A stretch of 63,172 bases of DNA, filler included, from 5 parts of 5 records of this genome joined end to end with filler, not necessarily neighbours in it; one strand, 5' to 3'; positions 24,485 to 39,785 are shown, counted from the whole stretch's first letter. Made by a program: numbers and translations. Notes: generated from the letters alone by a model not told the origin.

Positions 24485-27400
24485 CTAACCCAGATCTGTC
24501 AGCGATACGCTCATCGGCCCTACCTCGTAAACACGAAGGCCGTCGCGCCACAGGCTGCCCCGTGCGGTGATGAGAATATCCTCCCCGCGATCCTCGATGC
24601 TCAGGATCTCCATCACGCTGGTTACGGTCTTCCGCTCGGGCGTCACCTGTCCGCGATAGCTCCACTTCATCTGTGCATTCGGGGCAAGCGTGGTCAGGTG
24701 CGGTTGTGCCATGCCCTTGTGGAGGTCCTTCTTCCAGACAAGCTGTGTCAGCGCTTGGATCAATGCATCCAGCCCGAGGGACCCAGGCTGAACAGGGTCC
24801 TGATAGAAGTGCGCCTTGAAGTACCATGCATACGGGTCGACGTGCTGTTGCGCCCGGATCAGCCCGAGTCCGGCCTCTCCGCCATCCGGATCGTAGAAGT
24901 CGATCTCGTCGATCATTTGCATTCTGCCAGAGGCGCGCGGTTCCTGCATGGATATCTGCATCGATGCCGAGCGCAGGTCGAACGCCTCGGTAAAGTGAGG
25001 TTTCGCTGGAAGGCCTGCTTGCCGGACGAGAGAAGAGGGCGGGAAGAATCCGAATTGTGTTTTCAGATCCAGCACCTGTCTTCCATCACCTGTGACGACC
25101 TCGACATCGAAGGAGACGAGCGTCATAGGCCCGACTTTGGCAATATTCGTCAGAGTGCTGCGTATTTTCAACATACCGTCATTCCGGCCAACTTCCATGT
25201 GCAGGAAGCCATCACCTTCAAGGTTCCGGAAGCGAAGCGTACCCACAAGTGCGAAGCCTGAATGGCTGGCCAGCCAGCCACAGGGCTGAAGCGCGATTTC
25301 GCAGAGAACGGCAAACGGCATGGTACCATTCACATTGTCGTCGAAGTACCAGGCGTCCGCAGGAATGTCGTACTCCGCCGTCATGGTCGCGCCGAGCGTC
25401 TCCTCGGCTGGACGCGTCGTTACTGACGTCACGCGGGATATGAAATGATACGGCGGTTGAGGAAGGCGCGGAACATTCCCATGATCGTCATAACGCCGGT
25501 ACATGTCTCCGAAAGCGGCAGAAGGCGCGCCATTGGCGCAATCCAGCAGCGCGGCGTGATCCCCTCGGCTTTCGTGCTCTGGTCCGATCCGCAAAGGCTT
25601 GGCATCTATTCTCGGCGCTGGCCAGTTGCGGCGAAGCCGGATTCCAAAGCGCGGACAGTGGAACACCTTGTGGCCGTCGCACCGGGCGAGCAGGGCGGCG
25701 TATATTTCCGGCGTCTCCCCATCGATGATTTCGTCGATGAAGACTTCATAGGTAACCTGATGATCCTTATCCGGGATCACTTGACCGCGGCACACAAATT
25801 TCGCTGTGTGTTCGGGAATGGGTTCGAAGACGTATCCGTCCCGCTCGACAGTCAGGCCCACGGCAGCGGCATAGAATTCCAGCGCCTGCACGGCGGCTTC
25901 CGCCATGAGTGTGCCGGGCATGCAGGGGTCGTTGTGAAAGTGTCCGTCATAGAACCATGTGGACGTTGGCGTTGCCGCGCGTGCCCGAAGGTAGCCGCGT
26001 TTCCAGGGCCCACCTTGCGGTTCGAATGCAATGACATCCTCGAACAGCGAGAGCTTTCCGCCGGGAATATGTGGTGGATTGGAATGGGCGGCACAGAGCT
26101 CAAAACCCTCGCCGAAACAAGCAAAGGCATCACCGTTCCGGAACGCGCTTATATCGTCTTCAGAAAACTTCCGCTTGTCGCTGACACGCTGTGGTTCGAA
26201 GCTGGTAGGGTCAGAAGTCGGGGGGGTATTTTTTGCGGCGTCCCAGATGACGCCTTTGCTGTTGGCGAGTTCCTCATCTGTGAAGAAGCCGGCTTGCCCG
26301 TTGCGGACAGAGAACGCCAAACGGTCATTTGTTCTGCAATCATACTGGAAGAAGAACATCCGCACGCCGCCCAATTCTGCGTGCCCGGTAATTTCGATCT
26401 GGAAGCCCAGCGTATCGTCGACCGATGGGAGCCCCCCCTCGTGGAAGGTGATCTCGCACCCCAGCAATCGATAGACCCGTTCGTTTTTGTTGCGCAAGTC
26501 CGCACCCATCCAGCCGATCAGCGTCAGATCCGCCTGACCGCATTCGATCAGCGGACCCGGGCGGATGCGGCCGTCATGGATGAAGCCCGTATGATTTGAG
26601 AGATCTGTTTCGGTCCAGATCACACCGCCGGCCTCTTCGGTTGGGGCGGCATCGATGCCGATGACCCGGTCCACCAGAAGAAGTGGCGGTGCCGGAAGGC
26701 GTACCTGCCGGTCAAAGCGGTCCTGGGCTGCGAAGGCCGGTCCGAAGAATTCCGACATCTTCCCGCGTGAGGAAGCCTTGACCTCTCTTCGGTCGCGGGT
26801 CGGCCCAGACGGCGAACGGCGGTTTAGCTCGGTCGTCCCGCTTACTACCTTTTGCGGAGGCTCAGCACATTTTCCGGGAACGGGCTCCGGAGGCCGGCTC
26901 GGCATCGTCACCTGTTGGCACGATATAGTCATGGCATAGTCCGGTATGCGCAGCTTGGGCGCAGGCGGCAGTCCGCCCTGGACCGGGCGTGGTCGGTTTT
27001 TGACAATCTTGGGCATGAGATAAGGCACCGGTCTTGTGGCGTTCCATTGGGCGGCTGGGGCGGCCTCATTTTTCTGGGCGGCGGCGAGCGTTTCGAGCAG
27101 GGGCTTCAGGTCGATGTCCCGTCCATCGGCATAAAGAAATGCCGCTGCGTGCGTGATCTGGCCAAGGTCCGAGGATTCGATCCTGTCGGTGGCGATGGCC
27201 TTGAAAGGCTTATCTTTCAATGTGTTGTAGAGGCTGGCCGTCAACGTATCGCGTGGGCCCAGTTCAAGGAAGGTCCGCACACCATCCGCCAAGGCCTGAC
27301 GCACCGTCTTAGGAAAATCCACCGTATCGACTGCCTGCCGGGTCAGCATGTCCGCGACAACGTCCGTTTCAGGCTCGTAGGCCCCGTGAATTGCATTGGC

Positions 27401-30400
27401 GTAAAGCCGCACGTCAGACCCCCGATGTACCGGCCGCGTATGCAGGCGCCGCCAGGTATCCGCGAACGGCCGCATGGCCTTGGCATGGACGATCAGGTGC
27501 TGGTTCATCTTCACGCCAGCGCGCCTGCCGAATTCTTCACACAGCGCACGGCAGGCCTCTGCAGGCCCTCCGATCATGCAGTCCTCATCTGTGTATATGA
27601 TCGTGATTTCCACGCCGGGATGACGTGACAGTGCGGCCCTTACGTCAGCAACTGGAGCTTGCAGGCGCCAGTTGGTCCAGTCGGATGGGACGTTTGGTCC
27701 CCATGCCTGTTTCGCCGTTTCGAATTCGCCGCCGATGTGCCGCTCGTACATTGCAGCTTTTGATATCTCGTCCAGAAGTGCGCCGGGATCTTTCCAGTAA
27801 CCAAAGGAAAACAAAGCATTGGACTCTCCGAGCGAAAGTCCGATGGCGGCATCAGGCTTCACCTTGAGGACGTCCAGCCAGAGGATCGCATGTGCTTGGC
27901 TGACCAGCGTGCCGGCGCAAAGCTGCTCGAATTCTGAGAGGCTCGCACGTGCCAGCAGGGCGGCAATCTCTTCTGCCCGGGAGAGCTTTGAAAGTTTCTT
28001 CCGGACCTCGGGGAACGCCATCAGAAGGCGCCTCGCCATTCGGGGGTAGACTGCAGCCGACCCGGTAAACATGAAGGCCAACTCGCCTTCTGGTTTACCT
28101 TCACCATAATAAACACCGTCACCAGTCGGCGCTCGATCTTGCAAGAGTTGCAGCGCAACAGACGCACGCAAGTTTTGGATTGCTTCTTCGCTCACAGCCA
28201 CGAGGGCGATCCGGCATTTACCCCGGCTGCCTTGTCGTCCAGATTTCAGATTTTCCGCCAACTTCTGCCTGCTGGCTGCTGCCGCGAAGAAGATGGACGG
28301 CGTCGGCCTTAGTGGATCAGGCATCACCAATGGTGGCGCCAATTCAAGTGAAATCGATGTGCCAGAGTGCGCTGCCCCAGCCGGGACGTTTATCCGGCTT
28401 TTTTTCCGTGGCGAGGACAAACTCGGAACTGCGCCGTCTGGTGTCAGGTGATGACTGTGGGCATTCAGCAGCAGTTCGATGGCTGCCTGGACCAAAGCTT
28501 CAGCATCCGGTGCGGTTCCGTAAACATCGGAAAACAGATTCCCGACCTGCCTGCTTTTCGAGTTTTTCCATTCTATCGACGCAACCGATCCAAGTATCGG
28601 ATCTCCGGCGGTCTCAGCATCCTCACGACGTTTGAGAACCAGCGCGGCTGCCGCGTCGCCAGGGTTTTTTGTTTGACCCAACTCGCGAAGGGCCGTGGCC
28701 CGCACCGGTTCCGTCGCAAAATCTGCTGCTGCGACAATGGCCATGGACAGGCGCCCTGAAGCCAAGGCATCAATCGCGAGATCCAGCGCAGCAGGACCGC
28801 TCGCGGCACCAGCGGACACCGAGTATCCCATGCCCTGTATGTCGCGCCCGAATGTGATCCGGTTTGCGGTCATGTTCGCCATTGCACCGAGCACCATCGC
28901 AGCATCGAGTTTCGGGGCGATATCGTCTGGTGATTGCGAGGAGGAAGAAGAAATACGCTCCCTGAGAGCCCAGCGCGCAGAATCTGCCGCGCAAGTCATT
29001 CCGGCAAAGACTCCCGTCAAGTGACTTTCAACAGGGGCAACCCTGTCCAGAGCTTCACTCACCGTAGACAGGATCGCCAATTGTTGCGGCTCGGCCTGTG
29101 TCAGGTCTTTGGGAGGTGTTCTGGCATTCGCAGCATTGGCCCCGATTTCTTCCAGTGGCGCCGGAGGGGTGATGGGCCAGTTCATCAACCGTCTCAACAC
29201 CGCATCTGTCGTGCGGTCCGAGCCGGCCATAACGGCCGCGGCACAGACCACAATTTCAGGAGTGCGTGATTGTTTTGAGCTACTGTTGCGACCTCTCCGA
29301 ACGACCGGCTGGTATTGCTCCAGTATCAGGTGCGCATTGTTGCCACCGAATCCGAAGTTACTGATCGCAGCACGCCTTGCGCCATCATCACTTTTCCAGG
29401 GAGCCGGCTTCGTTTGCACGATCAGGTTTGAATGTTCTAGAGATTCCAGCACGTCGCCATCGATCGGTGTCGGGGGCAGGTATTCCCGAGACATCGCGCC
29501 GGTCAGCTTCAGGATGCTTGCAAGACCGGCGACGGTAATGAGGTGCCCGGTGTTCGCCTTGAGAGATCCGACCGGTAATTGCTCCAGAGCGCCATAGACA
29601 GACTTTGCCGATGATACCTCCACGCCATCTCCAACGGGTGTACCGGTCGCGTGGCATTCAAGGTATTGGATCGTAAGCGGATCTATTTCGTTGTGCTTCA
29701 ACGCCTCACGCATCGCATCGGCTTGCCCTTCGGCAGACGGTGCCAGCAGACCTTTCCGGCGGCCGTCATTAGACAGGCCGCTTGCGCGAATTAGTCCGTG
29801 AACTTCTTCCCCCGGTTCAACGTCACTCAGTCGCTTCAGAACGATTGCGGCGGCACCTTCCGAAGGCACAAGGCCGTCGGCGCCTTTCACAAATGGCCGG
29901 GAACGGCCGGTGGGGCTCAGTGCATTTAAGGCGTCGAAACCAATGTGAAGGATCAGATTGTCAGCGGCATTGACTGCCGCAACGAGCGCGCAGTCTATTT
30001 GTCGCGATTGCAGCTTCCGGCACGCAATATCAACAGCATAGAGGGAAGATGCACATGCCGCATCAAGTGAAAGACAAGGCCCGGAGGCGCCTATCGCTTC
30101 GGCAATCAATCGTGATGGAAGTGCAGAATTCAGTGTCAGATGAGCAGGTGGTGTAGGTTCATCGCGCCACACTCTCGAAGCGAACTCGACATGCCCGGCG
30201 GATGGATAAGACAGGTTCGCGACAAACACGCCGATCGCGGAAGGTTTAACTCTGGGATTCGAAGCATCTACCCAGGCTTCAACAGCTGCTTGCAGGGGCC
30301 ATTTGCAGACAGGGTCCAGCGCCCCGGCATTAAAAGATTTCAGACGGAAGCGGTCAGGCGTGAAGAGGGCATCAAATCCATTTACGCGCCCGGACACGAA

Positions 30401-30565
30401 CGACTGGGAATTAGCTGTGACGCTGGCGAGTCCAAGTTCGACAGGATAGACAGGGCCGTAAACGACCCGCTGCTCCATCACAATATCAGTGAGCTCCTCA
30501 GGCGTGTGTGCGCCAGGAAGAACACATCCCTGTCCAACGATAGCGACAGGTTCGAAACGGGTCAT
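24485..30565 (-). CDS. PUFA-synthase PfaBC/Pfa3-like protein: KS - CLF - AT - FabA-type DH'/DH - DH'/DH
   Basis: KS DAACASS/HATGT/GHL; second KS-fold lacks the Cys (SAGAASG); AT GLSLGE; DH motifs WFYDGHFHNDPCMPG and WYFKAHFYQDPVQPG; ATGA overlap with the KR ORF. Confidence 0.92.
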   Translation of the reverse strand: MTRFEPVAIVGQGCVLPGAHTPEELTDIVMEQRVVYGPVYPVELGLASVTANSQSFVSGRVNGFDALFTPDRFRLKSFNAGALDPVCKWPLQAAVEAWVDASNPRVKPSAIGVFVANLSYPSAGHVEFASRVWRDEPTPPAHLTLNSALPSRLIAEAIGASGPCLSLDAACASSLYAVDIACRKLQSRQIDCALVAAVNAADNLILHIGFDALNALSPTGRSRPFVKGADGLVPSEGAAAIVLKRLSDVEPGEEVHGLIRASGLSNDGRRKGLLAPSAEGQADAMREALKHNEIDPLTIQYLECHATGTPVGDGVEVSSAKSVYGALEQLPVGSLKANTGHLITVAGLASILKLTGAMSREYLPPTPIDGDVLESLEHSNLIVQTKPAPWKSDDGARRAAISNFGFGGNNAHLILEQYQPVVRRGRNSSSKQSRTPEIVVCAAAVMAGSDRTTDAVLRRLMNWPITPPAPLEEIGANAANARTPPKDLTQAEPQQLAILSTVSEALDRVAPVESHLTGVFAGMTCAADSARWALRERISSSSSQSPDDIAPKLDAAMVLGAMANMTANRITFGRDIQGMGYSVSAGAASGPAALDLAIDALASGRLSMAIVAAADFATEPVRATALRELGQTKNPGDAAAALVLKRREDAETAGDPILGSVASIEWKNSKSRQVGNLFSDVYGTAPDAEALVQAAIELLLNAHSHHLTPDGAVPSLSSPRKKSRINVPAGAAHSGTSISLELAPPLVMPDPLRPTPSIFFAAAASRQKLAENLKSGRQGSRGKCRIALVAVSEEAIQNLRASVALQLLQDRAPTGDGVYYGEGKPEGELAFMFTGSAAVYPRMARRLLMAFPEVRKKLSKLSRAEEIAALLARASLSEFEQLCAGTLVSQAHAILWLDVLKVKPDAAIGLSLGESNALFSFGYWKDPGALLDEISKAAMYERHIGGEFETAKQAWGPNVPSDWTNWRLQAPVADVRAALSRHPGVEITIIYTDEDCMIGGPAEACRALCEEFGRRAGVKMNQHLIVHAKAMRPFADTWRRLHTRPVHRGSDVRLYANAIHGAYEPETDVVADMLTRQAVDTVDFPKTVRQALADGVRTFLELGPRDTLTASLYNTLKDKPFKAIATDRIESSDLGQITHAAAFLYADGRDIDLKPLLETLAAAQKNEAAPAAQWNATRPVPYLMPKIVKNRPRPVQGGLPPAPKLRIPDYAMTISCQQVTMPSRPPEPVPGKCAEPPQKVVSGTTELNRRSPSGPTRDRREVKASSRGKMSEFFGPAFAAQDRFDRQVRLPAPPLLLVDRVIGIDAAPTEEAGGVIWTETDLSNHTGFIHDGRIRPGPLIECGQADLTLIGWMGADLRNKNERVYRLLGCEITFHEGGLPSVDDTLGFQIEITGHAELGGVRMFFFQYDCRTNDRLAFSVRNGQAGFFTDEELANSKGVIWDAAKNTPPTSDPTSFEPQRVSDKRKFSEDDISAFRNGDAFACFGEGFELCAAHSNPPHIPGGKLSLFEDVIAFEPQGGPWKRGYLRARAATPTSTWFYDGHFHNDPCMPGTLMAEAAVQALEFYAAAVGLTVERDGYVFEPIPEHTAKFVCRGQVIPDKDHQVTYEVFIDEIIDGETPEIYAALLARCDGHKVFHCPRFGIRLRRNWPAPRIDAKPLRIGPEHESRGDHAALLDCANGAPSAAFGDMYRRYDDHGNVPRLPQPPYHFISRVTSVTTRPAEETLGATMTAEYDIPADAWYFDDNVNGTMPFAVLCEIALQPCGWLASHSGFALVGTLRFRNLEGDGFLHMEVGRNDGMLKIRSTLTNIAKVGPMTLVSFDVEVVTGDGRQVLDLKTQFGFFPPSSLVRQAGLPAKPHFTEAFDLRSASMQISMQEPRASGRMQMIDEIDFYDPDGGEAGLGLIRAQQHVDPYAWYFKAHFYQDPVQPGSLGLDALIQALTQLVWKKDLHKGMAQPHLTTLAPNAQMKWSYRGQVTPERKTVTSVMEILSIEDRGEDILITARGSLWRDGLRVYEVGPMSVSLTDLG

Positions 30566-31938
30566 GTGCTACCCCATTCGTCACCAACGACGAACCGAAC
30601 CTGATCGTGAGAAGAATTCAGAAGTTGATCTGCGAATATACGAGCGCCTTCTTGCTTAGAGATCAGGCCTATGCCCCGCTCGGCGAACATTCGCGCTAGG
30701 GATTCATCGACCATTCCACCTTGCCAGGGGCCCCAGCAAAAGGCTTTCACTTGTGTATCGGGCATTTTCCCGGCGAGGTGAACGGCCACATTGTTCAGCC
30801 ACTCATTGGCTGCGGCATAGTTGGATTGCCCTTCGTTTCCAAATACGGCGGATGCTGAAGAAAAAAGACCAATATAACGAAGGGTGGAAGGCTCAATAAA
30901 AGACACGATCGTTTCAAGTCCGGTGACTTTGGGCGAAAAAACCTTCTCAAAATTATCGAGACCAAGCGCTTCGGCGAAACCATCTGAAAGGACACCTGCG
31001 CCATGAACCAGTCCGGTGACCGAGCCTTCCTCATTTACGAGTCTGGAAAGAGTGGGACGAAGGCTTGCCTGATCCCCAATGTCCGCCTGCACGTAACGGG
31101 CTTTGGCTCCGTTAGACTCGATGGCTTTGAGGGTAGAGACGATTTCCGCCCCGGCCAGAAGCTTGCGGGCGAAGCGGTCAATCTCCGCCGGCTTCTTGGG
31201 GGCGTCGGCACGACCAGAGTTCTTTGCCAGGGCACCTCGCAACGCTTTGAGATCGGCTTCTCGCTCAAGCCAGGTAGGCCAGGCAACGAGATCGGACCGA
31301 CCGAGTAGAATGAAACTGCCCCCCGTTCTCTTTGCGAGCTCAATCGCGCAATCGGCAGTCACACCCCGTCCACCACCGGTTATCAACCAGACTGGTGATC
31401 CAGGAACAACTGATGCGGCGGATGGCGGCAGAACAACTTCGCCGGGAACATCTTGATAAATTCCGTCGTTACTCAGCGTATAGTCACCTTCAGACAGGAT
31501 CAGAGACATCGCAACACGAAATGCTTCATTCTGGATATCTCCGGAAGTTCTGAGAGACGAGGCACTTGCACGTATTCCGGGGCGTTCAATCCGAAGCGAA
31601 CGACAAAGGCCCGAAACACCTCCGATCACTGACAGGGAGCCGGCTGACGTGCGGTCCAGCGCAACGACGTGTACCCCTTCGTGCGCCGACAGCATCGCCT
31701 TGAGAACGTCATGGTGTCTTTTTGCCGGTCGTTCCTCGGTCAAGCCCTCCGTAAGAAGACATGTCCTTGCGCTTTGAGGCTTGCTGACGATGCTGGCCTT
31801 TCCACCGCGATTTTCAATCTCATGCTTGATCGCTTCAGCATAGGCGGGAGCGGCATGTGTTATCTCGATCGCGTTGAATTCTCCGAACGATATATCTCGG
31901 TCATATGCAGCTACTCGTACGGTCTCGAGTACCCGCAC
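30562..31938 (-). CDS. PfaA-type ketoreductase (KR) module, probably translated as the -1 frameshift extension of 32010..35948
   Basis: LITGGGRGVTA, VHGAGVLSD, FSSASAVFGNEGQSNYAAANE; GTG start with no clear SD; the frame is open upstream to 32022. Confidence 0.88.
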   Translation of the reverse strand: MRVLETVRVAAYDRDISFGEFNAIEITHAAPAYAEAIKHEIENRGGKASIVSKPQSARTCLLTEGLTEERPAKRHHDVLKAMLSAHEGVHVVALDRTSAGSLSVIGGVSGLCRSLRIERPGIRASASSLRTSGDIQNEAFRVAMSLILSEGDYTLSNDGIYQDVPGEVVLPPSAASVVPGSPVWLITGGGRGVTADCAIELAKRTGGSFILLGRSDLVAWPTWLEREADLKALRGALAKNSGRADAPKKPAEIDRFARKLLAGAEIVSTLKAIESNGAKARYVQADIGDQASLRPTLSRLVNEEGSVTGLVHGAGVLSDGFAEALGLDNFEKVFSPKVTGLETIVSFIEPSTLRYIGLFSSASAVFGNEGQSNYAAANEWLNNVAVHLAGKMPDTQVKAFCWGPWQGGMVDESLARMFAERGIGLISKQEGARIFADQLLNSSHDQVRFVVGDEWGST

Positions 31939-31977
31939 GGCGTTCAGATATGGAGCATTCCCTGCGTCTGTCGCGCC

Positions 31978-32025
31978 GGGACGGAGCGCCTCAGGAGGCG
32001 TACCGTCCCCTAGGCAAAAAAATCA
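31978..32025 (-). promoter_or_regulatory. Candidate -1 programmed ribosomal frameshift signal
   Basis: T-TTT-TTT (32022-32016) in frame, 6-nt spacer GCCTAG containing the 0-frame stop, then hairpin GGGACGG-TA-CGCCT-CCTG-AGGCG-CT-CCGTCCC (32009-31978); TGA in the -1 frame lies immediately before the heptamer. Confidence 0.72.
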
Positions 32026-35000
32026 GCGATCGCCTTGATCGTGCGGAGTTCAACCAGGACTTCCGGGTCCACTTCCGGGAGGTCCGGATGTTGTTCACGA
32101 AGGGCCGAAAGGATTTCAACCTGCTTGATGGAATCGACGCCCAACTCACCTTCAAGATCCATGTCGTCTTCCAGCATATCACTCGGATATCCTGTTTTGT
32201 CTGCAATCAGCTCCCGGACGACATCCGGTGTGATTGAGCCATTTAACTTACCAGGGGCCAGCGCCGCCGGGACAGATGAAACCTCGATGCTGATGGGGGT
32301 GGCTTTCTTGGCCGCCAGAGCGGGCGAGCCACCATTTGATCCTGCCACCATGTCGGCAATTGCCGCGATCGAGCGCAATTCCACGAGGCGCTCTGGGTCT
32401 ATTTCAGGAAGTTCCGGCAGCTGCTCCCGGATCGTCGACAGGATTTCGACCTGTTTGATGGAGTCGACGCCCAGCTCTCCCTCCAGATCCATGTCCACGT
32501 CCAGCATGTCTTCAGGGTAACCGGTTTTATCTGCGATGATGCCGCGTACCAGGGCGACGGCATCCAGTCCTTGAGAGCTGATAGCGGGAGCAGCAGGTTC
32601 CGTGACAGGTTGGACTGGTGGGGCAGCTGCCGCTGATGCGGCTGGTTGAGCGTGTGCTGAGCGTCTCGCCGGTGCTTTTGCCGGACCAGGTGCAGCATGC
32701 GCGTCTGCCGTCGCAGGCTCAGGATGTCGTGGTTCTGGAGCGACCGGCGCGCTTGGCGTCGGAGCGGGTTGAGGCAGTGCTTTTGTCTGTTCAGGTAATG
32801 ATACCGCGGCGCCATTCATGACTTGCGATACAGTATTCAAATACGCGGCATGAGCCGAAGAGGCCATGCTCATGAACTCCGAATGACGGCGAGATACTTC
32901 CATCAACACCCGTTCAGCTGGGGTTTCGCCGCCAGACCCGGAAGGGTCATAGGAAGGCATGGAAGGAAACGACGAGTAGGATGAATCCGGCATGGCAGGC
33001 TCCTGGCGAATAGAGGCAGAAGAGGGTTGAGTTGGGACAGCCTGAGGAAGGCGGTCGGCCATCTTGCGGTTATTTTGCGGGGTAGAAGCTGGTATGCGAT
33101 CGGGATTCGGGGCCGCTTTACCCGCTGCACCGTCAGGTGGCGGATAAGGTTTGGCGAAATTCGCCCCGGAAATCATGACAGCGTGCTTGGGCGGGGCCGA
33201 GCGAGGCGGTTCAGCAGGCAAGTCTTCGAACAAGGTTGCGAAATCGACGGGAATGCCCGCGACGCTGATTGCGCCAAGTACGGACAGAAATTGTGTAACA
33301 CCGTTCATTCGCTTGTTGTCGAGCGAATAGGATTTGTGCGGACGGTCACGAAGGACGTCATCAACCAGCCCAGTCACGACCGACCCTGGGCCTATCTCAA
33401 TGAACAGGCGCGCACCGTCGGCGTACATCCGCTCGACCAGTTCCCTGAACCGGACAGGAGAGGCGAGTTGGCTTGCGACTTCCACGGGCATCTGTGTGCC
33501 GGTGCAGGCGTAAGGCTCTGCTGTCGCATTGGCATATACCGGCAGAGAAGGTTTGCGCAGGCGTAGTTTCCTGAGTGTCGTTTCAAATGGTTCAACAGCA
33601 GACGCAACAATCTTCGAATGGAAAGCGGTCGCGACGGGAAGAAGGCGGGCCTTCAGTCCTTCCCGTGTACATAGCTCCTGAGCATCGTTCACAACTTTGG
33701 TGGGACCGGACAGCACGACCTGGCTCGGCCCATTGTCATTGGCGAGTACCAGATCTGGAGCGAATTCGCGTAGGATGTGACCAATATCCTCTGATGCGGC
33801 CTGAACGGCCATCATGGATCCGGAACTGGATTTTGCGGCTTTGGCCATAAAGGCACCACGATCGACAGACGCCGAAAGGGCGCCGGAAGCGTTCATAGCG
33901 CCTGCATAGTGCAACGCCATGATCTCACCGAAGCTGTGTCCGGCCGCCATCTCGGCCTGGACCCCGGCTTGCGACAGCAAGGCGAGGTGCGACAGGGTCA
34001 CAGCAGCGATCGCAGGCTGGGCATGCTCCATGGCTTTCAGGTGATCAGTTTGATCGCCATGTTCGACCTGATCGAATGCTGCTGGTGGAAATGCCAGTTT
34101 ATGGAGTTTCAGTTCACCCGCATGTTTGTGGTTCGCGGCTTCATCCCAGACTGCTCTCGCGGCCGGGAATGCCATGGCCAGATCAGCGCCCATACCGACA
34201 TATTGGCTGCCTTGTCCTGAAAACATGAAGGCGACTTTTTCATCCGTCGGCTGATCGAGAGATACATGGCAACCCATTTTGAGGGGGCGGTTGCCAATTT
34301 CATTATTATTCAGCGCATCGATGACGCCGTTGGCTTTGCCGGTGAGGTCTTCCGGAGATTGTGCCACAATGGCTGCGCGAGCGGGTGCAGTAGCATCAAA
34401 TGCCTCCTGGCTTTCTGATGCCCGGAAAGCGAATTCCTTTTCTGTGAGACCGGTCTTGAACGCCGAAATTCTGGAAGAGAGTGTCGCGGGAGAATCTGCT
34501 GAAAACAGGAAGAGTTCTGCGGGCAATGATCTCCAGGGTCTGACTGCATTGGGGCCGGTGTATTCTTCCAAAGTGACGTGGAAGTTGCTTCCCCCGAAAC
34601 CGAATGAACTCACAGAGGCTCTGCGAGGCCTTTTTTTTGGAGAAATCCAGGGGCGGGCCTCGGTGTTCAGATAAAAAACCGGGCTGTTCTTGATGGCGTC
34701 TGCTGGTTCTTCCACTTTAATGGTCGGTGGCAAGACCTTCCGGCTCAAAGCATGGGTGACTTTAATCAGGCTCGCGGAACCGGCCGCTGCTTTTGTGTGG
34801 CCGATCTGTGCTTTGACTGAACCAATGGCGCACCAGGGTTCGTCCTGTTTGTGCTCTCCGAAAACGAGATGGAGTCCTTCGATTTCGGCCTTGTCGCCAG
34901 CTTTTGTGCCAGTACCATGAGCCTCAACCAGGTCTACTGTAGACGGATCATAGCCAGCCTGATCGTACGCGCGCTCCAGCGCTCGGGCCTGGCCGTGTGG

Positions 35001-35948
35001 AACCGGGCTATAGATCGCGGTTCCTTTTCCATCTGAAGCACCGCCAAGTCCTCTGATGACTGCGTAGATCTTGTTACCATCCCGCTCGGCATCGTCCAGT
35101 CGGCGCAGTGCGAGCATGCCAATGCCTTCGCCCAGCATGGTGCCGTCCGCTCGTGTGGAAAATGGCCGGCAGTCTCCGGACGGCGACAAGGCCGGCGTTT
35201 TGGAGAAGCACATATACATCAGGATGTCGTTCAAGGCGTCCACGCCGCCTGTCAGAACTGTATCGCTGTCCCCGGACCTGAGTTCGTGCAGGGCGATCTG
35301 CAGTGCCGAGAGGCTGGAGGCGCAGGCGGCATCGGTTACGTAATTGCTGCCAGTCAGATCAAACCGGTTTGCGATTCTTCCGGCGATAACGTTGCCAAGC
35401 AAACCGGGGAAGGTGGCTTCCTGCCAATCGACATAGTGATCTTCAATCCGCCGGGCGATGTTCTGAACCTGGTCTTCCGGCAGCCCGGCCTGACGCATCG
35501 CATCCACCCATGCAGGACGTTGAAGCCGACCTGCCATGTGTGCAGTCATCTCCGTTGCCGATGCCACGCCGAGAATGATGCTCGTGCGAGACTTATCGAT
35601 CATGCCGCTGGAGTCTTGTTCAATGTCTTCCAACGTCATTTGTGCGGCGATCAGGGCTAGAAGCTGAGCTGTGTCGGTGCCCTCCATCGCCTTGGGCGGA
35701 ATGCCGAAATAGAGCGGATCGAAAGCAAGAGGATTGATGAACCCGCCACGACGTCCGTACGTCCGGTCTTTCGTCTTGGGATCTTCATCGTAGTAGTCTT
35801 CAATCAGCCAATGACTTGGCGGTACGTCGCTGATCAGGTCCCGACCTTCAAACAGGTCACGCCAGAAACCCGTGACATCACCCCGTCCCGGATAAACGGC
35901 CCCCAGGCCGACGATCGCGACAGGAGCGGCGGTTTGTTTGGCCATCAC
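32010..35948 (-). CDS. pfaA: PUFA-synthase PfaA/Pfa2-like protein, N-terminal part: KS - malonyl-AT - 2x ACP
   Basis: KS DAACASS/HGTGT/GHTKAAAG; AT GHSFGE and TAFHS; Pro/Ala-rich linker; two ACPs ADKTGYP...LGVDSIKQVEI; stop immediately after ACP2. Confidence 0.92.
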   Translation of the reverse strand: MMAKQTAAPVAIVGLGAVYPGRGDVTGFWRDLFEGRDLISDVPPSHWLIEDYYDEDPKTKDRTYGRRGGFINPLAFDPLYFGIPPKAMEGTDTAQLLALIAAQMTLEDIEQDSSGMIDKSRTSIILGVASATEMTAHMAGRLQRPAWVDAMRQAGLPEDQVQNIARRIEDHYVDWQEATFPGLLGNVIAGRIANRFDLTGSNYVTDAACASSLSALQIALHELRSGDSDTVLTGGVDALNDILMYMCFSKTPALSPSGDCRPFSTRADGTMLGEGIGMLALRRLDDAERDGNKIYAVIRGLGGASDGKGTAIYSPVPHGQARALERAYDQAGYDPSTVDLVEAHGTGTKAGDKAEIEGLHLVFGEHKQDEPWCAIGSVKAQIGHTKAAAGSASLIKVTHALSRKVLPPTIKVEEPADAIKNSPVFYLNTEARPWISPKKRPRRASVSSFGFGGSNFHVTLEEYTGPNAVRPWRSLPAELFLFSADSPATLSSRISAFKTGLTEKEFAFRASESQEAFDATAPARAAIVAQSPEDLTGKANGVIDALNNNEIGNRPLKMGCHVSLDQPTDEKVAFMFSGQGSQYVGMGADLAMAFPAARAVWDEAANHKHAGELKLHKLAFPPAAFDQVEHGDQTDHLKAMEHAQPAIAAVTLSHLALLSQAGVQAEMAAGHSFGEIMALHYAGAMNASGALSASVDRGAFMAKAAKSSSGSMMAVQAASEDIGHILREFAPDLVLANDNGPSQVVLSGPTKVVNDAQELCTREGLKARLLPVATAFHSKIVASAVEPFETTLRKLRLRKPSLPVYANATAEPYACTGTQMPVEVASQLASPVRFRELVERMYADGARLFIEIGPGSVVTGLVDDVLRDRPHKSYSLDNKRMNGVTQFLSVLGAISVAGIPVDFATLFEDLPAEPPRSAPPKHAVMISGANFAKPYPPPDGAAGKAAPNPDRIPASTPQNNRKMADRLPQAVPTQPSSASIRQEPAMPDSSYSSFPSMPSYDPSGSGGETPAERVLMEVSRRHSEFMSMASSAHAAYLNTVSQVMNGAAVSLPEQTKALPQPAPTPSAPVAPEPRHPEPATADAHAAPGPAKAPARRSAHAQPAASAAAAPPVQPVTEPAAPAISSQGLDAVALVRGIIADKTGYPEDMLDVDMDLEGELGVDSIKQVEILSTIREQLPELPEIDPERLVELRSIAAIADMVAGSNGGSPALAAKKATPISIEVSSVPAALAPGKLNGSITPDVVRELIADKTGYPSDMLEDDMDLEGELGVDSIKQVEILSALREQHPDLPEVDPEVLVELRTIKAIADFFA

Positions 35949-37513
35949 GCGGCCTCCGTTTCAGCGAATTGATGCGGGATGTAATCGAAGGCTGTAGGAG
36001 GCACCGCGACGCCGACGGCGCGCAGTTGAGAAGCTCTAGTAATACGGGCTGCGCCTTCCATGAGGTTCCAGGCAATCTGGCGGACCGTCCGGTTGGATAT
36101 GTCTTCCAGGAAAGTGCCCGCGGCCCATTCATTAAACGCCCCTTGCGCTGGGCCGCACCAGATCTGGTAGTCAGCCAGATGGTCAGGATCGCCGTCACGG
36201 GCGAATTGTGCGCCGGAGAACAGGTAGCGTCTTGCGACGAGAGCGAGACGCTTGTTGCCGTCGGATTCCGCACGTTCAGCTTCTTTCGGGTTCACTTCCC
36301 TGATGTAGCTGCGTGTCGCCTGCCAGGCGGCCTCGAACGGCTCGCCAAGAACATCTTCGATCCAGGACTGGTCTTTCGGATCCAGCGTTTCGAATGACGC
36401 GCCGGAACGATAGAGCTGAAACAGTTTCTTTCCGCGCATCGCGAAAAGGGTTCCGCGTTTCAGAACCTGAACTTCCACGCCTTGCTCGAACATGTCCGCA
36501 GCCGGCGCCATCGCAACATCAGCCGGCCCGGCTTTAGCCAGCAATTGGCGACCGGGCAGGGACAGGCCGGATTCTACGGCTGCCTGATTGATCGAACCCG
36601 TCAGCACATAGGCCGCACCCATGCCGAATGCTGCCGCCACAGCGTGCGGGGTGGCGATGCCACCAGCCAGACCAATTCGGATGGCGTTGGGGTCAATTCC
36701 GGATTTTGAAGCAACCCGATCCCGGGCTGCGGATATCGAGGAAAAGAGGGGGGCCGCTGACCTCCGGTCTGTATGTCCCCCGGAATCCGCCTCGGCGGTG
36801 ATTTCTGCTGCGACGGGAACTTGTCTGGCGAGTTCAGCCTGTGCTGACGAAATCGTACCAGAATCGACAAGTGAATTCAGAATGGCATCCGGTGCAGGTG
36901 ATAAGAACTGCTCGGCGACTTCTGCGCGGGACACTTTCGCAAAAACATGGTTTGTCCGGATGATCTGACCATCGGGTCGTCGTTCAAGCCCGAGCGCCGT
37001 ATATCGCACGACTTCCGGAGATAGGCGCATGTAAGCCGACGCGGAAACGCGCCTGACTTCTTCGCGAAGGAATAAGTCGACGACGGCGGCCTCATATCCG
37101 GGCTGTTGGGGTGTGTGAATCAGGTTCGCGCCCCAGCTGATCTGATCAGCTGACAATTCCGATTTGATCTTGAGTAGTCCTTGCTCGATCTCATCGAGAG
37201 CAAGTCCTGCGCTACCGTAGAAACCCAAGCAGCCGGCACGTACGGCTTCGACAACCATACGTGGCGTAGCAATGCCGCGAGCCATCTCCCCGACGACATA
37301 GTTGAATCTGGCCCCATGGGTGGCTGAAAAGGCCCGGTCGCCCAGCCATTCCGGATACAACGGAGGAAGTATCGCTGCGTTGGTTGGGTTACCTTCGGTG
37401 ATGGCAACGGCTTTTACCTCGTCCACGGAAAGCTCTAGGCTGACCGGGAGGCGCGGGTTCTCAATGATCGTGGTGCACACGTTCATCATCCAGGACACTT
37501 CTTGCCATCTCAC
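35945..37513 (-). CDS. pfaD: PfaD-family FMN-dependent enoyl reductase
   Basis: GEMARGIA, VSASAY, AKVSRAEVA, EADSGGHTD, GSINQ, MAPAADMFE, DYQIWCGPA; 4-nt overlap with pfaA. The start may be the ATG at 37489. Confidence 0.93.
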   Translation of the reverse strand: MRWQEVSWMMNVCTTIIENPRLPVSLELSVDEVKAVAITEGNPTNAAILPPLYPEWLGDRAFSATHGARFNYVVGEMARGIATPRMVVEAVRAGCLGFYGSAGLALDEIEQGLLKIKSELSADQISWGANLIHTPQQPGYEAAVVDLFLREEVRRVSASAYMRLSPEVVRYTALGLERRPDGQIIRTNHVFAKVSRAEVAEQFLSPAPDAILNSLVDSGTISSAQAELARQVPVAAEITAEADSGGHTDRRSAAPLFSSISAARDRVASKSGIDPNAIRIGLAGGIATPHAVAAAFGMGAAYVLTGSINQAAVESGLSLPGRQLLAKAGPADVAMAPAADMFEQGVEVQVLKRGTLFAMRGKKLFQLYRSGASFETLDPKDQSWIEDVLGEPFEAAWQATRSYIREVNPKEAERAESDGNKRLALVARRYLFSGAQFARDGDPDHLADYQIWCGPAQGAFNEWAAGTFLEDISNRTVRQIAWNLMEGAARITRASQLRAVGVAVPPTAFDYIPHQFAETEAA

Positions 37514-37992: not shown

Positions 37993-38802
37993 TCAGCCAC
38001 CGGCCGTCATGGCGCCATCAACGACATGTTCCTGTCCATTGATGTAACTGGATTTGTCGGAAGCGAGATAAACGATCAGATCAGCCACTTCGTCGGGGCG
38101 TCCCGGTCTTCCCATTGGTGATGCCTGAGCACCCAATGTGTCGGCATCCAACGCATTCGCACCGGCAGGAACATCGGGAATAATCGGCATCCCTTCACCC
38201 AGACGGGTGATGGATTTCTGCCAGATCGGAGTATCGATGATCCCGGGATGGACCGAATTGACCCTTATCGGCCAACCGGCGCGGGCACATTCTACGGCTG
38301 CGGCCTTGGTGAACAGTCGAACCGCGCCCTTCGACGCGCAATAAGCGCTGAGCCCCGCTGCGCCGCGGAGACCTGCCACCGACGAAATGTTGATGATCGA
38401 CCCGCCGGTGTTCTGCATTTTGCGAATGGCGGCACGGGTGCCCAGGAACACGCTGTCCACATTCACAGCCATTTGCGTCTTCCAGTCGTCGAGTGAAAAT
38501 TCGGGAATCGCGCCGCCAATCGCGATGCCGGCATTGTTGACGAGAATGGAAGGCGTGCCGAGTTTTGCCTCCGCTTCGTCCATCACTGTGTCCCAAAGCA
38601 CCTCATCGGTGACGTCCTGAACCAGTGTTTCTACGTTGCCCCCGGCAGCGGATATGTTCGCTGCGGTGATCTCCAGACCTGCTTTGTCGATGTCGGTTGC
38701 GAAGACGGCAGCACCTTCCGCCGCCAGGGCTTCTGCTGCTGCCCGCCCGATACCGCTTCCTGCCCCCGTTATTACGGCGACGCGGCCATCCAGTATTCCC
38801 AT
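37993..38802 (-). CDS. Classical short-chain dehydrogenase/reductase
   Basis: TGAGSGIG, NNAG, NISS, YCASKG, VNSVHPG; GGAGG-type SD upstream. Confidence 0.93.
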   Translation of the reverse strand: MGILDGRVAVITGAGSGIGRAAAEALAAEGAAVFATDIDKAGLEITAANISAAGGNVETLVQDVTDEVLWDTVMDEAEAKLGTPSILVNNAGIAIGGAIPEFSLDDWKTQMAVNVDSVFLGTRAAIRKMQNTGGSIINISSVAGLRGAAGLSAYCASKGAVRLFTKAAAVECARAGWPIRVNSVHPGIIDTPIWQKSITRLGEGMPIIPDVPAGANALDADTLGAQASPMGRPGRPDEVADLIVYLASDKSSYINGQEHVVDGAMTAGG

Positions 38803-39685: not shown

Positions 39686-39716
39686 GAGCTATTTTTATTG
39701 CAAAGGTAAAATAAAA

Positions 39717-39732: not shown

Positions 39733-39785
39733 AAATTATTTACTTAACTAAAATAAAAGTATATTTGTACAAAGTTTAGGATTTT

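What the first reader, a model, noticed from the sequence alone, without database searches (positions are those of the whole stretch)
31938..32030. Candidate -1 programmed ribosomal frameshift that makes the ketoreductase optional in a PUFA-synthase-like PKS
Seen in sequence (minus strand): the pfaA-like ORF ends GCT GAT TTT TTT GCC TAG, exactly at the end of ACP2. The seven Ts (32022-32016) form an in-phase X-XXY-YYZ slippery heptamer. After a 6-nt spacer comes a GC-rich hairpin, GGGACGG-UA-CGCCU-CCUG-AGGCG-CU-CCGUCCC (32009-31978). The -1 frame has a TGA immediately before the heptamer, and the 0 frame stops two codons after it, so the heptamer is essentially the only place the frames overlap. 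The -1 frame reads FF-CLGDGTPPEALRPGATDAGNAPYLNA-VRVLETVRV..., a Pro/Gly/Ala linker running without a stop into the KR ORF. The KR's GTG has no clear SD, whereas the other two junctions in the cluster are 4-nt stop/start overlaps. A weak SD-like AAGGCG ends 8 nt upstream of the heptamer. Established: heptamer + 5-9 nt spacer + stem-loop, with or without an upstream SD, is the bacterial -1 PRF architecture (dnaX, IS3-family, E. coli copA), and PfaA normally carries KS-MAT-ACPn-KR in one chain. Inference: one gene yields a 1312-aa KS-AT-ACP2 subunit and a ~1795-aa KS-AT-ACP2-KR subunit. Their ratio could set ACP:KR stoichiometry or the reduction pattern of the product. I do not know of a described PRF in pfa-type synthases.
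Basis: partly seen in the sequence, partly recalled or inferred. Interest (0 to 1): 0.92.

Follow-up and report, generated by a model that had tools for sequence, protein, structure and literature searches.

The report
Conserved ribosomal frameshift joining ketoreductase to lipid synthase
A slippery run of U's followed by a stable RNA hairpin sits exactly where a lipid-making megaenzyme gene breaks frame before its ketoreductase part, and the same signal is kept in about a hundred related marine bacterial species, so the cell most likely makes a short and a long version of the enzyme from one message.

Summary
On the minus strand the KS-AT-ACP2 ORF ends GAT TTT TTT GCC TAG. T7 is 32022-32016, and a 32-nt GC-rich hairpin (32009-31978) starts 6 nt after it. 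The -1 frame runs open into the KR.

It is not a sequencing error. I could read the ACP/KR junction in 101 genomes of the same family, one per species, with KR identity 36-91%. Of these, 100 carry the same cassette: U UUU UU[U/C], one codon, any of the three stops, then GGG opening a 10-15 bp hairpin.

- The Asp and first Phe third positions are invariant, while neighbouring synonymous sites vary.
- The hairpin covaries (0 of 500 shuffles reach the observed score).
- The -1 frame stays open into the KR in 100 of 101 cassette-bearing loci (window included).
- The window's GTG "start" aligns to a Val codon that is a possible start in only 53 of 99 sequences, with an SD-like motif in 1 of 99.
- More distant relatives are fused in frame.

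Best reading (0.85): a programmed -1 ribosomal frameshift gives a 1312-aa KS-AT-ACP2 protein and a 1795-aa KS-AT-ACP2-KR protein.

No paper found in the held library describes this. Product ratio and biological role are untested.

The parts
35945..37513 (-). First gene of the cluster, a 522-aa PfaD-like enoyl reductase. It ends in a 4-nt overlap with the next ORF.
   Evidence: ORF list. Pfam finds FabD_helical_ins (1.8e-15) and NMO (26.4 bits, just under the 28-bit cut-off). Calling it PfaD-like is inference from this pattern and from its position.
32010..35948 (-). Zero-frame ORF of 1312 aa: KS, AT and two ACP domains (pfaA1-like). It ends ...IADFFA-TAG.
   Evidence: Pfam gives ketoacyl-synt 2e-59, Acyl_transf_1 4e-45 and PP-binding in 2 stretches.
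32016..32022 (-). Slippery heptamer U UUU UUU, in phase as X XXY YYZ (GAU UUU UUU). This is the proposed site of the -1 tandem slip of two tRNA-Phe.
   Evidence: The heptamer is conserved as TTTTTTT (68) or TTTTTTC (33) in 101 loci. The third positions of Asp and of the first Phe are T in 91 of 91 distinct sequences, while the third positions of the Ile and Ala codons beside them vary.
32010..32015 (-). 6-nt spacer: one sense codon (GCC) plus the zero-frame stop TAG.
   Evidence: Exactly one codon followed by TAA, TAG or TGA (26/35/40) is found in all 101 cassette loci.
31978..32009 (-). 32-nt stem-loop GGGACGG-UA-CGCCU-CCUG-AGGCG-CU-CCGUCCC, the proposed 3' frameshift stimulator. It is also translated in the -1 frame (G D G T P P E A L R P).
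   Evidence: Folds (-22.5 kcal/mol, 12 bp). Covariation is shown.
31939..32015 (-). -1-frame linker (C L G D G T P P E A L R P G A T D A G N A P Y L N A) between the slip site and the codon that an ORF finder takes as the KR start.
   Evidence: The peptide alignment of 100 loci shows conserved residues (RP, P-Y, V-R) upstream of the GTG. The -1 frame has a stop within 60 codons in 1 of 101 loci, against 73 (frame 0) and 98 (frame +1).
30562..31938 (-). KR ORF as an ORF finder calls it (458 aa, GTG). It is read here as the C-terminal part of the frameshift product, 1795 aa in all.
   Evidence: KR domain 9.6e-32, residues 184-406. The GTG aligns to GTG/ATG/TTG in 53 of 99 sequences and to non-start codons in 46.
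24485..30565 (-). pfaBC-like ORF of 2026 aa (KS, KS-like/CLF, AT, 2x FabA dehydratase). It has a 4-nt overlap with the end of the KR.

Best explanation
This is a programmed -1 ribosomal frameshift site inside a pfaA-like gene of a Pfa-type (secondary lipid / PUFA-synthase-like) cluster.

**Proposed mechanism (inferred).**
1. Ribosomes translating KS-AT-ACP2 reach GAU UUU UUU with tRNA-Phe in the P and A sites.
2. The GC-rich hairpin that begins 6 nt downstream sits at the mRNA entrance and resists unwinding.
3. In a fraction of ribosomes both tRNAs slip back one base onto U UUU UU.
4. Those ribosomes read on in the -1 frame: Cys-Leu-Gly-Asp-Gly..., through the hairpin sequence and a Pro/Gly/Ala linker, into the ketoreductase. 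The product is a 1795-aa KS-AT-ACP2-KR chain.
5. Ribosomes that do not slip add one Ala and stop at UAG, giving a 1312-aa KS-AT-ACP2 chain that ends exactly at the last ACP helix.

**Shown:** the signal, its conservation at synonymous sites, the covarying structure, the open and conserved -1 frame, the lack of a conserved start for the KR, and the in-frame fusion in distant relatives.

**Inferred:** that slippage happens on the ribosome, its efficiency, and that both products are used.

**Likely role (inference):** the site fixes the ratio of KR-bearing to KR-less subunits of the synthase. The KR, and in three genomes everything downstream of it, is made only through the shift.
For: 1. **The window's break is real DNA.** Contigs of 3 DNA runs from 3 studies and 1 metatranscriptome run bridge 32016-32022 with no indel.
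2. **Census.** 105 of 262 genomes of the family hold a KR homologue. 104 loci were examined, the window included. Two of them are contig-end stubs. 101 carry T6[T/C]-NNN-stop-GGG, and 1 (G219) carries only U_UUU.
3. **Frame relation.** The KR lies in the -1 frame relative to ACP2 in 93 of 94 family loci scored (the exception is L048). It does so by eye in the 11 further loci.
4. **Selection on the RNA and not on the protein.**
   - The Asp third position is T in 91 of 91 distinct sequences, although GAC outnumbers GAT 1467 to 951 in the same ORFs.
   - The first Phe is TTT in 91 of 91, although TTC outnumbers TTT 418 to 167.
   - The Ile and Ala third positions beside them vary.
   - ACP1 has IADMV where ACP2 has IADFF.
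5. **Hairpin.**
   - It starts at the GGG 6 nt after the heptamer. The median is 13 bp and -22 kcal/mol. Lengths are mostly 32 or 35 nt, which differ by one codon.
   - Depth-4 to depth-12 positions pair in 632 of 819 cells, against a shuffled mean of 535 and a maximum of 565 in 1000 shuffles.
   - On 67 sequences, 80.6% of cells are paired against 72.3% in shuffles. The covariation score is 0.316 against 0.187, and 0 of 500 shuffles reach either. Slid registers give 50-58% paired. 9 of 13 pairs show changes on both sides.
6. **The -1 frame is coding.** It is open to the end of the KR, or of the fetched DNA, in 100 of 101 loci. Stops within 60 codons occur in 1 (frame -1), 73 (frame 0) and 98 (frame +1) of 101 loci.
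7. **No conserved independent start for the KR**.
8. **Fused relatives.**
   - Four distant loci are fused.
   - Three genomes of the same order outside the family are fused and have no T6 run.
   - The longer homologues found are KS-AT-ACP-KR proteins at 42% identity or less; 120 are listed of 266 found.
9. **Spacer.** The 6-nt spacer lies inside the 5-9 nt range given for heptamer sites with a 3' structure (Atkins et al. 2016, PMC5009743, passages read).
Against: - **No direct evidence of the long protein or of shifted ribosomes.** No proteomics, ribosome profiling or raw RNA reads were available; only contigs could be laid.
- **The heptamer is not the most shift-prone.** U_UUU_UUU was less shift-prone than A_AAA_AAG in E. 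coli constructs (PMC5009743, passage), so efficiency may be modest.
- **No clear upstream stimulator.** Anti-SD pairing of the site ranks only at the median 0.21 quantile of control windows.
- **Two exceptions.** G113 has the cassette, but a 32-nt deletion behind the hairpin takes the KR out of the -1 frame. G219 keeps only a U_UUU tetramer.
- **Independent initiation is not excluded in every genome.** In 53 of 99 sequences the aligned Val codon could serve as a start.
- **The structure statistics use related sequences.** The shuffle test can therefore overstate significance, as the tool itself warns.
Confidence: 0.85

Rival explanations
1. Transcriptional slippage. RNA polymerase adds one extra U on the T run, so a share of the mRNAs carry U8 (or U7C) and encode the fused protein by ordinary translation. 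On this reading the hairpin serves another purpose.
For: - A T7 run is a homopolymer on which slippage is known in bacteria (general knowledge). UUUUUUU is under-represented in E. coli genes, and one reason offered is transcriptional slippage (Sharma et al. 2014, PMC4066793, passage).
- One extra U gives the same fusion protein.
- Low-level U8 transcripts could not be looked for, because only contigs were available.
Against: - 33 of the 101 loci have only six T's followed by C. That is shorter than the runs of 8-9 or more that I recall for programmed slippage.
- The pattern kept is exactly X XXY YYZ in phase, not simply a long run.
- A covarying hairpin at a fixed 6 nt downstream is the ribosomal stimulator layout. 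For polymerase slippage the stimulating hairpin lies upstream (recalled, not checked here).
- The one metatranscriptome contig that bridges the site has no added base. This is the majority form only, so it is weak evidence.
Confidence: 0.06
2. Two ordinary genes (pfaA1 and pfaA2, as described for type D and type H clusters). The KR is started on its own, by re-initiation after the stop or at a start codon in the linker. The hairpin acts on mRNA stability, processing or ribosome pausing for coupling.
For: - Split pfaA (KS-AT-ACPn plus a separate KR) with fused pfaBC is described in the literature as two genes (Shulse & Allen 2011, PMC3098273, passages).
- The window and 52 of the 98 other aligned sequences (53 of 99 in all) have GTG, ATG or TTG at the aligned Val codon.
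- The other genes of the cluster are coupled by 4-nt overlaps, so coupling is the local habit.
Against: - This reading gives no reason for the invariant T's at three synonymous positions, or for FF replacing the MV of ACP1.
- The aligned codon is GTT, GTA, GTC, CTG, CTC or another non-start codon in 46 of 99 sequences, with an SD-like motif upstream in 1 of 99.
- Conserved residues (R-P, P-Y) lie upstream of that codon in the -1 frame.
- The -1 frame is free of stops from the heptamer on in 100 of 101 loci.
- The hairpin is followed by no U run, so it is not an intrinsic terminator.
Confidence: 0.07
3. Artefact or decay. The break is a homopolymer sequencing error (true T8), or a recent frameshift mutation that has made a pseudogene.
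For: Homopolymer runs are error-prone, and the window alone cannot tell T7 from T8. One relative (G113) does carry a frame-breaking deletion nearby.
Against: - The same break at the same codon is found in 100 of 101 readable junctions from separate species-level genomes. All three stop codons are used, and there are two heptamer forms.
- Four further assemblies of near-identical DNA show no indel.
- The KR frame stays intact and conserved down to 36% identity, which a pseudogene would not.
Confidence: 0.01

Closest known systems
Phage lambda gpG/gpGT tail assembly chaperone, and IS3-family (IS911) OrfA/OrfAB: -1 frameshifts that extend a protein
   Same: [quoted passage not shown]
- The product of normal decoding is the short protein, and the shifted product is a fusion that adds a new C-terminal part.
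- The effect is a fixed ratio of two related proteins (Atkins et al. 2016, PMC5009743, passages).
- IS911 also uses a 3' stem-loop (recalled).
   Different: - Those are genes of mobile elements and phages. This is a chromosomal biosynthetic gene.
- The heptamer here is U UUU UUY, not A AAA AAG or G GGA AAG.
- The added part here is a whole catalytic domain of a megasynthase.
- No sequence or Rfam relation was found.
Cellular bacterial -1 frameshift genes: dnaX (tau/gamma), csoS2 (CsoS2A/B), copA (CopA/CopA(Z))
   Same: These are chromosomal genes in which a heptamer plus a 3' structure gives two isoforms that share an N-terminal part. csoS2 shifts at about 50% (PMC5009743, passages).
   Different: - In those three the shifted ribosome soon meets a stop, so the shift makes the SHORT form. 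Here the shift makes the LONG form, and the unshifted ribosome stops after one codon.
- dnaX also has a strong upstream SD-like stimulator, which is not supported here.
Split pfaA (pfaA1 KS-AT-ACPn + pfaA2 KR) with fused pfaBC: type D and type H secondary lipid synthase clusters (Shulse & Allen 2011)
   Same: The order of domains on the gene products is the same: KS-AT-ACPn, then KR, then KS-CLF-AT-DH2, plus an ER gene (PMC3098273, passages).
   Different: - Those clusters are described as having two separate genes. No recoding is mentioned in the passages I read, and 'frameshift' occurs 0 times in that paper.
- This cluster has 2 ACPs, against the 5 reported for type D.
- Hyphomonas is not among the organisms named there.
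- Whether the type D and type H junctions are also frameshift sites is open. See the Persicobacter note under Noticed in passing.

Membership tests
Bacterial -1 programmed ribosomal frameshift site (heptamer + spacer + 3' structure) | X XXY YYZ heptamer in phase with the zero frame, allowing both tRNAs to re-pair in the -1 frame | tested here: met
   The window has U UUU UUU at 32022-32016. Across 101 loci the heptamer is TTTTTTT in 68 and TTTTTTC in 33, always in phase.
Bacterial -1 programmed ribosomal frameshift site (heptamer + spacer + 3' structure) | Heptamer kept by selection at the nucleotide level (synonymous sites frozen) | tested here: met
   The third positions of Asp and of the first Phe are T in 91 of 91 distinct sequences, against a background of GAC over GAT and TTC over TTT. 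The neighbouring Ile and Ala third positions vary.
Bacterial -1 programmed ribosomal frameshift site (heptamer + spacer + 3' structure) | 3' stimulatory structure 5-9 nt after the heptamer, supported by covariation | tested here: met
   The spacer is 6 nt. The hairpin has 10-15 bp. 80.6% of cells are paired against 72.3% in shuffles (0 of 500 reach it), and 9 of 13 pairs show changes on both sides. The 5-9 nt range is taken from PMC5009743.
Bacterial -1 programmed ribosomal frameshift site (heptamer + spacer + 3' structure) | -1 frame downstream encodes a conserved protein that has no start of its own | tested here: met
   The -1 frame is open in 100 of 101 loci. The aligned 'start' codon is a non-start codon in 46 of 99 sequences, and an SD-like motif is present in 1 of 99. 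Independent initiation cannot be excluded for every single genome.
Bacterial -1 programmed ribosomal frameshift site (heptamer + spacer + 3' structure) | Trans-frame protein actually made; efficiency measured | not testable with these tools
   No proteomic or ribosome-profiling data were available. Only assembled contigs of public runs could be laid.
Bacterial -1 programmed ribosomal frameshift site (heptamer + spacer + 3' structure) | Upstream Shine-Dalgarno-like stimulator (optional, dnaX type) | tested here: inconclusive
   Mean anti-SD duplex energy is -3.2 at the site against -1.9 kcal/mol for control windows. The median rank is 0.21 (using a recalled anti-SD motif). The same bases also encode Arg-Lys or Arg-Ala.
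Programmed transcriptional slippage site | Long homopolymer run (about 8-9 or more; recalled threshold) with no need for phase or a 3' structure | tested here: not met
   The run is T7 in 68 loci and T6 in 33. Phase and 3' hairpin are both conserved.
Pfa-type secondary lipid (PUFA-synthase-like) cluster with split pfaA and fused pfaBC (types D/H of Shulse & Allen 2011) | Domain set: KS-AT-ACPn; KR; KS-CLF-AT-DH(FabA)2; ER | tested here: met
   Pfam. The ER call rests on an NMO hit just below the cut-off plus FabD_helical_ins. The type definitions come from passages of PMC3098273.
Pfa-type secondary lipid (PUFA-synthase-like) cluster with split pfaA and fused pfaBC (types D/H of Shulse & Allen 2011) | Phosphopantetheinyl transferase (pfaE) and a known lipid product | not tested
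   The neighbours scanned (18648-22504 and 37993-46747) hold no PPTase. The rest of the window and genome was not searched. The product is unknown.
Rfam frameshift elements | Match to a curated covariance model | tested here: not met
   cmscan of 31700-32300 at E up to 10 returned only one chance-level lncRNA hit (E 8.5).

The most novel reading that the evidence does not exclude
The frameshift is not just a fixed-ratio device but a tunable switch. On this reading the stability of the hairpin, which depends on temperature and possibly on a ligand or protein, would set how many synthase subunits carry the ketoreductase. In three genomes it would also set how many carry the whole downstream KS-CLF-AT-DH2 part. 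Lipid output or reduction pattern would then follow growth conditions at the level of translation.

Beyond this family, 'split pfaA' junctions described as two genes in other phyla (types D and H) could also be recoding sites. Persicobacter psychrovividus has an in-phase G_GGA_AAG, a 6-nt spacer and a stem at its -1 break. Its fused relative JZB09 keeps the same heptamer, with an immediate -1 stop. If so, making synthase forms with and without the KR from one message would be a general, repeatedly evolved feature of these megasynthases.
Probability: 0.15. Interest if true: 0.9.

Novelty: new member of a known kind. Interest (0 to 1): 0.8.

Why it matters
**For recoding.** Conserved programmed frameshifts in ordinary bacterial chromosomal genes are few; dnaX, csoS2 and copA are the ones named in the review passages I read. 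This would add one that is kept across about a hundred species. It uses a Phe-Phe U-run heptamer, which is rare among known cases.

**For megasynthases.** It would be, as far as my searches show, the first case in a polyketide or fatty-acid type megasynthase, with a whole catalytic domain attached by recoding. For PUFA and secondary-lipid synthases it offers a natural experiment on why KR is normally fused to the ACP array, and on what subunit ratio the complex needs.

**For annotation.** These genes are at present called as two ORFs, or possibly as pseudogenes. The KR 'start' is probably mis-set in every genome of the family.

**Testability.** The cassette is a compact element of about 45 nt. 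It can be put straight into a reporter.

Tried and rejected
- **Whole-genome relatives of the window.** No genome is held. I went through the locus L001 to get a handle instead.
- **RNAalifold on the ungapped 91-sequence alignment.** It gave no structure, because hairpins of 32 and 35 nt are out of register. I replaced it with an anchored depth analysis and a named-structure count on the 67 sequences of the 35-nt class.
- **Cassette pattern in a class-level sample.** 15 of 401 genomes hit, about as many as the reversed control. None of the 17 hits outside G001 lies at an ACP/KR junction. Nothing was found outside the family in that sample, but most of those genomes may simply lack the gene.
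- **Raw reads.** None were offered. Contigs cannot show rare U8 transcripts or start sites. The RNA-library contig bridging the site is only a majority call, from a relative about 94% identical.
- **Rfam.** Nothing.
- **Earlier notes of this scan.** None.
- **Plasmid collection.** 17 distant hits at 40.5% identity or less. The Rhodobacteraceae and Azospirillum examples are fused.
- **Metagenome scan with the Persicobacter KR protein.** 27 pattern matches, none confirmed, so the Bacteroidota lead could not be widened.
- **Persicobacter stem.** The fold is unremarkable (z -1.26).
- **Lower 3-bp extension of the hairpin.** Single-sequence folds often show GCC...GGC pairing that would leave no spacer. 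It was not tested for covariation and is not claimed.
- **Literature.** Searches found no paper on a frameshift in a PUFA or polyketide synthase, or in Hyphomonas.
  - Atkins et al. 2016 (the first 300,000 of 449,034 characters are held) has 0 hits for polyketide, fatty acid, ketoreductase or acyl carrier.
  - The main text of Antonov et al. 2013 lists only a 'polyketide cyclase' +1 coupling cluster.
  - Supplementary tables of these surveys could not be opened and might list this cluster.

Full report
**1. The observation**

On the minus strand the window reads ...AAG GCG ATC GCT GAT TTT TTT GCC TAG GGGACGGTACGCCTCCTGAGGCGCTCCGTCCC GGC GCG.... The seven T's are 32022-32016. The stop is 32012-32010, and the 32-nt inverted repeat is 32009-31978.

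Translation in three frames gives ...LRTIKAIADFFA* in the frame of the 1312-aa ORF. One base back it gives ...R*FFCLGDGTPPEALRPGATDAGNAPYLNAVRVLETVRV..., which runs without a stop into the 458-aa ORF that an ORF finder starts at GTG 31938.

Pfam assigns:
- KS, AT and two PP-binding stretches to the long ORF;
- a KR domain to residues 184-406 of the 458-aa ORF;
- KS, a second KS-like region, AT and two FabA domains to the next ORF (2026 aa);
- to the first ORF (522 aa), FabD_helical_ins plus a sub-threshold NMO hit, from which I infer a PfaD-like reductase.

The two other gene junctions are 4-nt overlaps.

The 71 nt around the site fold at -32.3 kcal/mol (z -2.6; 3 of 200 shuffles fold as well). 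The hairpin alone has 12 bp at -22.5 kcal/mol.

**2. Is it an error?**

No. A scan of species-representative genomes found eight related loci. The four from Hyphomonas and Hyphomonadaceae (KR identity 91, 58, 56 and 43%) all end the upstream ORF at the same codon. All continue the KR homology in the -1 frame from the T run on.

I then searched all 262 genomes held for that family. 105 have a KR homologue at E <= 1e-30. I fetched the junctions.

Of 104 loci examined, the window included:
- two are contig-end stubs of 102 and 40 nt;
- 101 contain T6[T/C]-NNN-(TAA|TAG|TGA)-GGG;
- one (G219) has CAT TTT CAC TAG GGG, which keeps only a U_UUU tetramer.

Two further genomes could not be read because the contig ended.

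The heptamer is TTTTTTT in 68 loci and TTTTTTC in 33. The stop is TGA in 40, TAG in 35 and TAA in 26. The codon before the run is GAT in 96, GGT in 3, AAT in 1 and GCT in 1.

For the window's own sequence, contigs of three DNA runs from three studies and of one metatranscriptome run bridge the T run without any indel. Only contigs were available, and one of the DNA runs may be the window's own source.

**3. Is the signal selected as RNA?**

Among 91 distinct 64-nt elements:
- the third base of the Asp codon is T in 91;
- the third base of the first Phe codon is T in 91;
- the third base of the second Phe codon is T in 61 and C in 30;
- the third bases of the Ile and Ala codons just before them vary (C65/T24/A2 and C55/T24/A7/G5).

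In the same ORFs GAC outnumbers GAT 1467 to 951, and TTC outnumbers TTT 418 to 167. No other Phe-Phe pair occurs in the upstream parts examined.

The first ACP, which is 70-80% identical to the second, reads ...IADMVSGS... where the second reads ...IADFF. The two Phe codons are therefore special to this spot.

**4. The hairpin**

In nearly all loci the stem opens at the GGG that directly follows the stop, 6 nt after the heptamer.
- Lengths are 35 nt in 67 and 32 nt in 17 of the 91 distinct elements. The two classes differ by one codon.
- The median is 13 bp (range 10-15) and -22 kcal/mol.
- The outer stem GGGRYGR/YCRYCCC changes in step. Position 4 is A-U in 35, G-U in 28 and G-C in 21. Position 5 is C-G in 64, U-G in 21 and U-A in 5. 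Position 7 is G-C in 52 and A-U in 15.
- The inner stem is replaced wholesale between clades (CGCC/GGCG, GGUGAG/CUCACC, GGGAGG/CUUCCC, GGAGCGC/GCGCUCU, CGCCGGCGCC/...) yet remains paired.
- Anchored at both ends, positions 4-12 pair in 632 of 819 cells. After shuffling the 3' arms among sequences the mean is 535 and the maximum 565 in 1000 trials.
- On the 67 sequences of the 35-nt class, a named 13-pair structure has 80.6% of cells paired against 72.3% in shuffles. The covariation score is 0.316 against 0.187, and 0 of 500 shuffles reach either.
- All six slid registers give 50-58% paired. 9 of the 13 pairs show changes on both sides.

The sequences are related, so the shuffle figures are not probabilities. 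The slid-register control, which keeps relatedness, points the same way.

RNAalifold on the unregistered alignment gave nothing. Rfam has no matching family.

**5. Is the -1 frame coding, and does the KR have its own start?**

From the heptamer the -1 frame is open to the end of the KR, or of the fetched DNA, in 100 of 101 loci. Within 60 codons after the cassette a stop occurs in 1 locus in frame -1, in 73 in frame 0 and in 98 in frame +1.

The translated linker keeps FF-x-[LIV]-[RG]-[GD]-G, then R-P (the 3' arm of the hairpin), then a variable Pro/Ala-rich stretch. A P-Y-x-x-x-V-R motif lies before the point where the structured part begins.

The window's GTG aligns to a Val position. There the codon is GTG in 49 sequences, GTT in 14, GTA in 12, GTC in 9, CTG in 5, CTC in 3, ATG in 2, TTG in 2 and other in 3, of 99 (one more sequence has a gap). 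An SD-like 4-mer lies upstream in 1 of 99. So this is a Val codon inside a reading frame, not a conserved start.

**6. Relatives without the break**

- The four distant loci (about 30% identity, from four other orders or phyla) have ACP and KR in one continuous frame.
- In a sample of 301 genomes of the same order, 36 have a homologue. 33 of these are family members already counted. The 3 outside the family (28-33% identity) have open frames of 1982-3055 aa. These are continuous from the ACPs onward over the fetched stretch (into the KR match in L150), with no T6 run.
- The protein database holds 266 longer homologues at E <= 1e-20. The 120 listed are at 42% identity or less. Nearly all are KS-AT-ACP-KR proteins named PfaA or type I PKS.
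- No in-frame fusion was seen among the 101 family junctions.

The fused state is therefore the general one. The frameshifted state marks this family's version of the cluster.

In three family genomes (G210, G218, G219) the KR frame runs on for 2613-2892 aa. There the KR is fused to the KS-CLF-AT-DH2 protein, while the ACP/KR cassette is still present. In those genomes everything after ACP2 would depend on the shift, unless there is internal initiation. This argues that the shift is reasonably efficient (inference).

**7. Mechanism and rivals**

The layout is an in-phase X XXY YYZ, a 6-nt spacer and a stable 3' stem-loop. This is the standard bacterial -1 ribosomal frameshift layout; the review by Atkins et al. 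gives 5-9 nt as the usual spacer (PMC5009743, passages). A single tRNA-Phe reads both UUU and UUC (established knowledge), so both heptamer forms allow perfect re-pairing.

The products are 1312 aa and 1311 + 484 = 1795 aa.

- **Transcriptional slippage** is the main rival for how the frames are joined. A third of the sites have only six T's, the conserved feature is phase rather than length, and the conserved hairpin lies downstream at ribosomal spacing. I could not measure U8 transcripts.
- **Independent initiation of the KR** leaves the frozen synonymous sites and the conserved upstream peptide unexplained.
The median rank among control windows is 0.21 (with a recalled anti-SD motif), and the same bases encode Arg-Lys or Arg-Ala.
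- **The -1-frame TGA just before the heptamer** is present in only 25 of 101 loci, so it is not part of the signal.

**8. Comparison with what is known**

By mechanism this is an ordinary -1 PRF site. By outcome it resembles lambda gpG/gpGT and IS3-type OrfAB, where the shift extends the protein. It is unlike dnaX, csoS2 and copA, where the shift truncates it (dnaX and IS details partly recalled).

By gene content the cluster matches the 'split pfaA plus fused pfaBC' layout that Shulse & Allen called types D and H. They described it as two genes, pfaA1 and pfaA2 (PMC3098273, passages). That paper never uses the word frameshift and does not name Hyphomonas.

My literature searches found no report of recoding in a PUFA, fatty-acid or polyketide synthase, or in Hyphomonas:
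-;
- the review text;
- the main text of the GeneTack survey.

Supplementary tables were closed and could hold such a cluster.

**9. A lead outside the family**

On plasmid pPP1 of Persicobacter psychrovividus (Bacteroidota) the pfaA-like ORF also stops, and the KR continues in the -1 frame. The junction has an in-phase G_GGA_AAG, six bases, then a 7-bp stem that holds the stop.

Persicobacter sp. JZB09 has one continuous frame. It differs by a 1-nt indel just behind the same heptamer, and there a -1 slip would meet TAA at once.

The stem is not statistically notable (z -1.26), and a metagenome scan found no further relatives. This may be a plain mutation or sequencing error. I record it only as a lead.

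**10. Verdict**

It is a new, family-wide member of the known class of -1 PRF sites, in a gene class where none was known. Efficiency, regulation and the use of the KR-less product are open.

Noticed in passing
L152:4186-4230 (Persicobacter psychrovividus plasmid pPP1) and L155 (Persicobacter sp. JZB09): A second pfaA-like gene is broken into the -1 frame before its KR. The junction has an in-phase G_GGA_AAG, a 6-nt spacer and a 7-bp stem that holds the stop. The sister species has one continuous frame and differs by a 1-nt indel behind the same heptamer. This is either a mutation or error, or an independent recoding site. The stem fold is unremarkable (z -1.26).
   Followed up: partly
L048 (genome G113), just after the hairpin: The cassette is intact, but a 32-nt deletion relative to close relatives (L039, L040) removes the 3' end of the hairpin and puts the KR out of the -1 frame. 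This is the only one of 101 loci where the -1 frame closes (after 15 codons). It could be an assembly error or decay.
   Followed up: partly
Genomes G210, G218, G219 (loci L104, L102, L085): The KR frame runs on for 2613-2892 aa, so the KR is fused to the KS-CLF-AT-DH2 protein. The ACP/KR frameshift cassette is kept in these genomes, although G219 has only a U_UUU tetramer in place of the heptamer.
   Followed up: partly
window 42410-46747 (-): A 1445-aa ORF has a full AcrB-type RND transporter (residues 5-1035) and outer-membrane-factor (OEP) repeats fused at its C-terminus (1075-1250). It lies next to a HlyD-type adaptor gene (41274-42398). An inner-membrane pump fused to an outer-membrane channel is an unusual arrangement.
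   Followed up: no
window 21845-22504 (-): A 219-aa ORF has only the C-terminal part of a reverse transcriptase domain plus a group II intron maturase domain. It is probably a truncated group II intron protein. It lies about 2 kb beyond the 3' end of the last synthase gene (pfaBC-like), with the 22762-24300 ORF in between.
   Followed up: no
window 22762-24300 (-): A 512-aa beta-propeller (lactonase-like) protein carries a bacterial Ig/cadherin-like domain and a weak match (E 4e-5, below the cut-off) to the Por secretion C-terminal sorting domain. That domain is unexpected in an alphaproteobacterium.
   Followed up: no
window 32013-32015 with 31975-31977, and the same places in related loci: Single-sequence folds often pair the codon after the heptamer (GCC or GGC) with bases just after the hairpin (GGC or GCC). 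This would leave the stop codon in an internal loop and no spacer. It was not tested for covariation.
   Followed up: no
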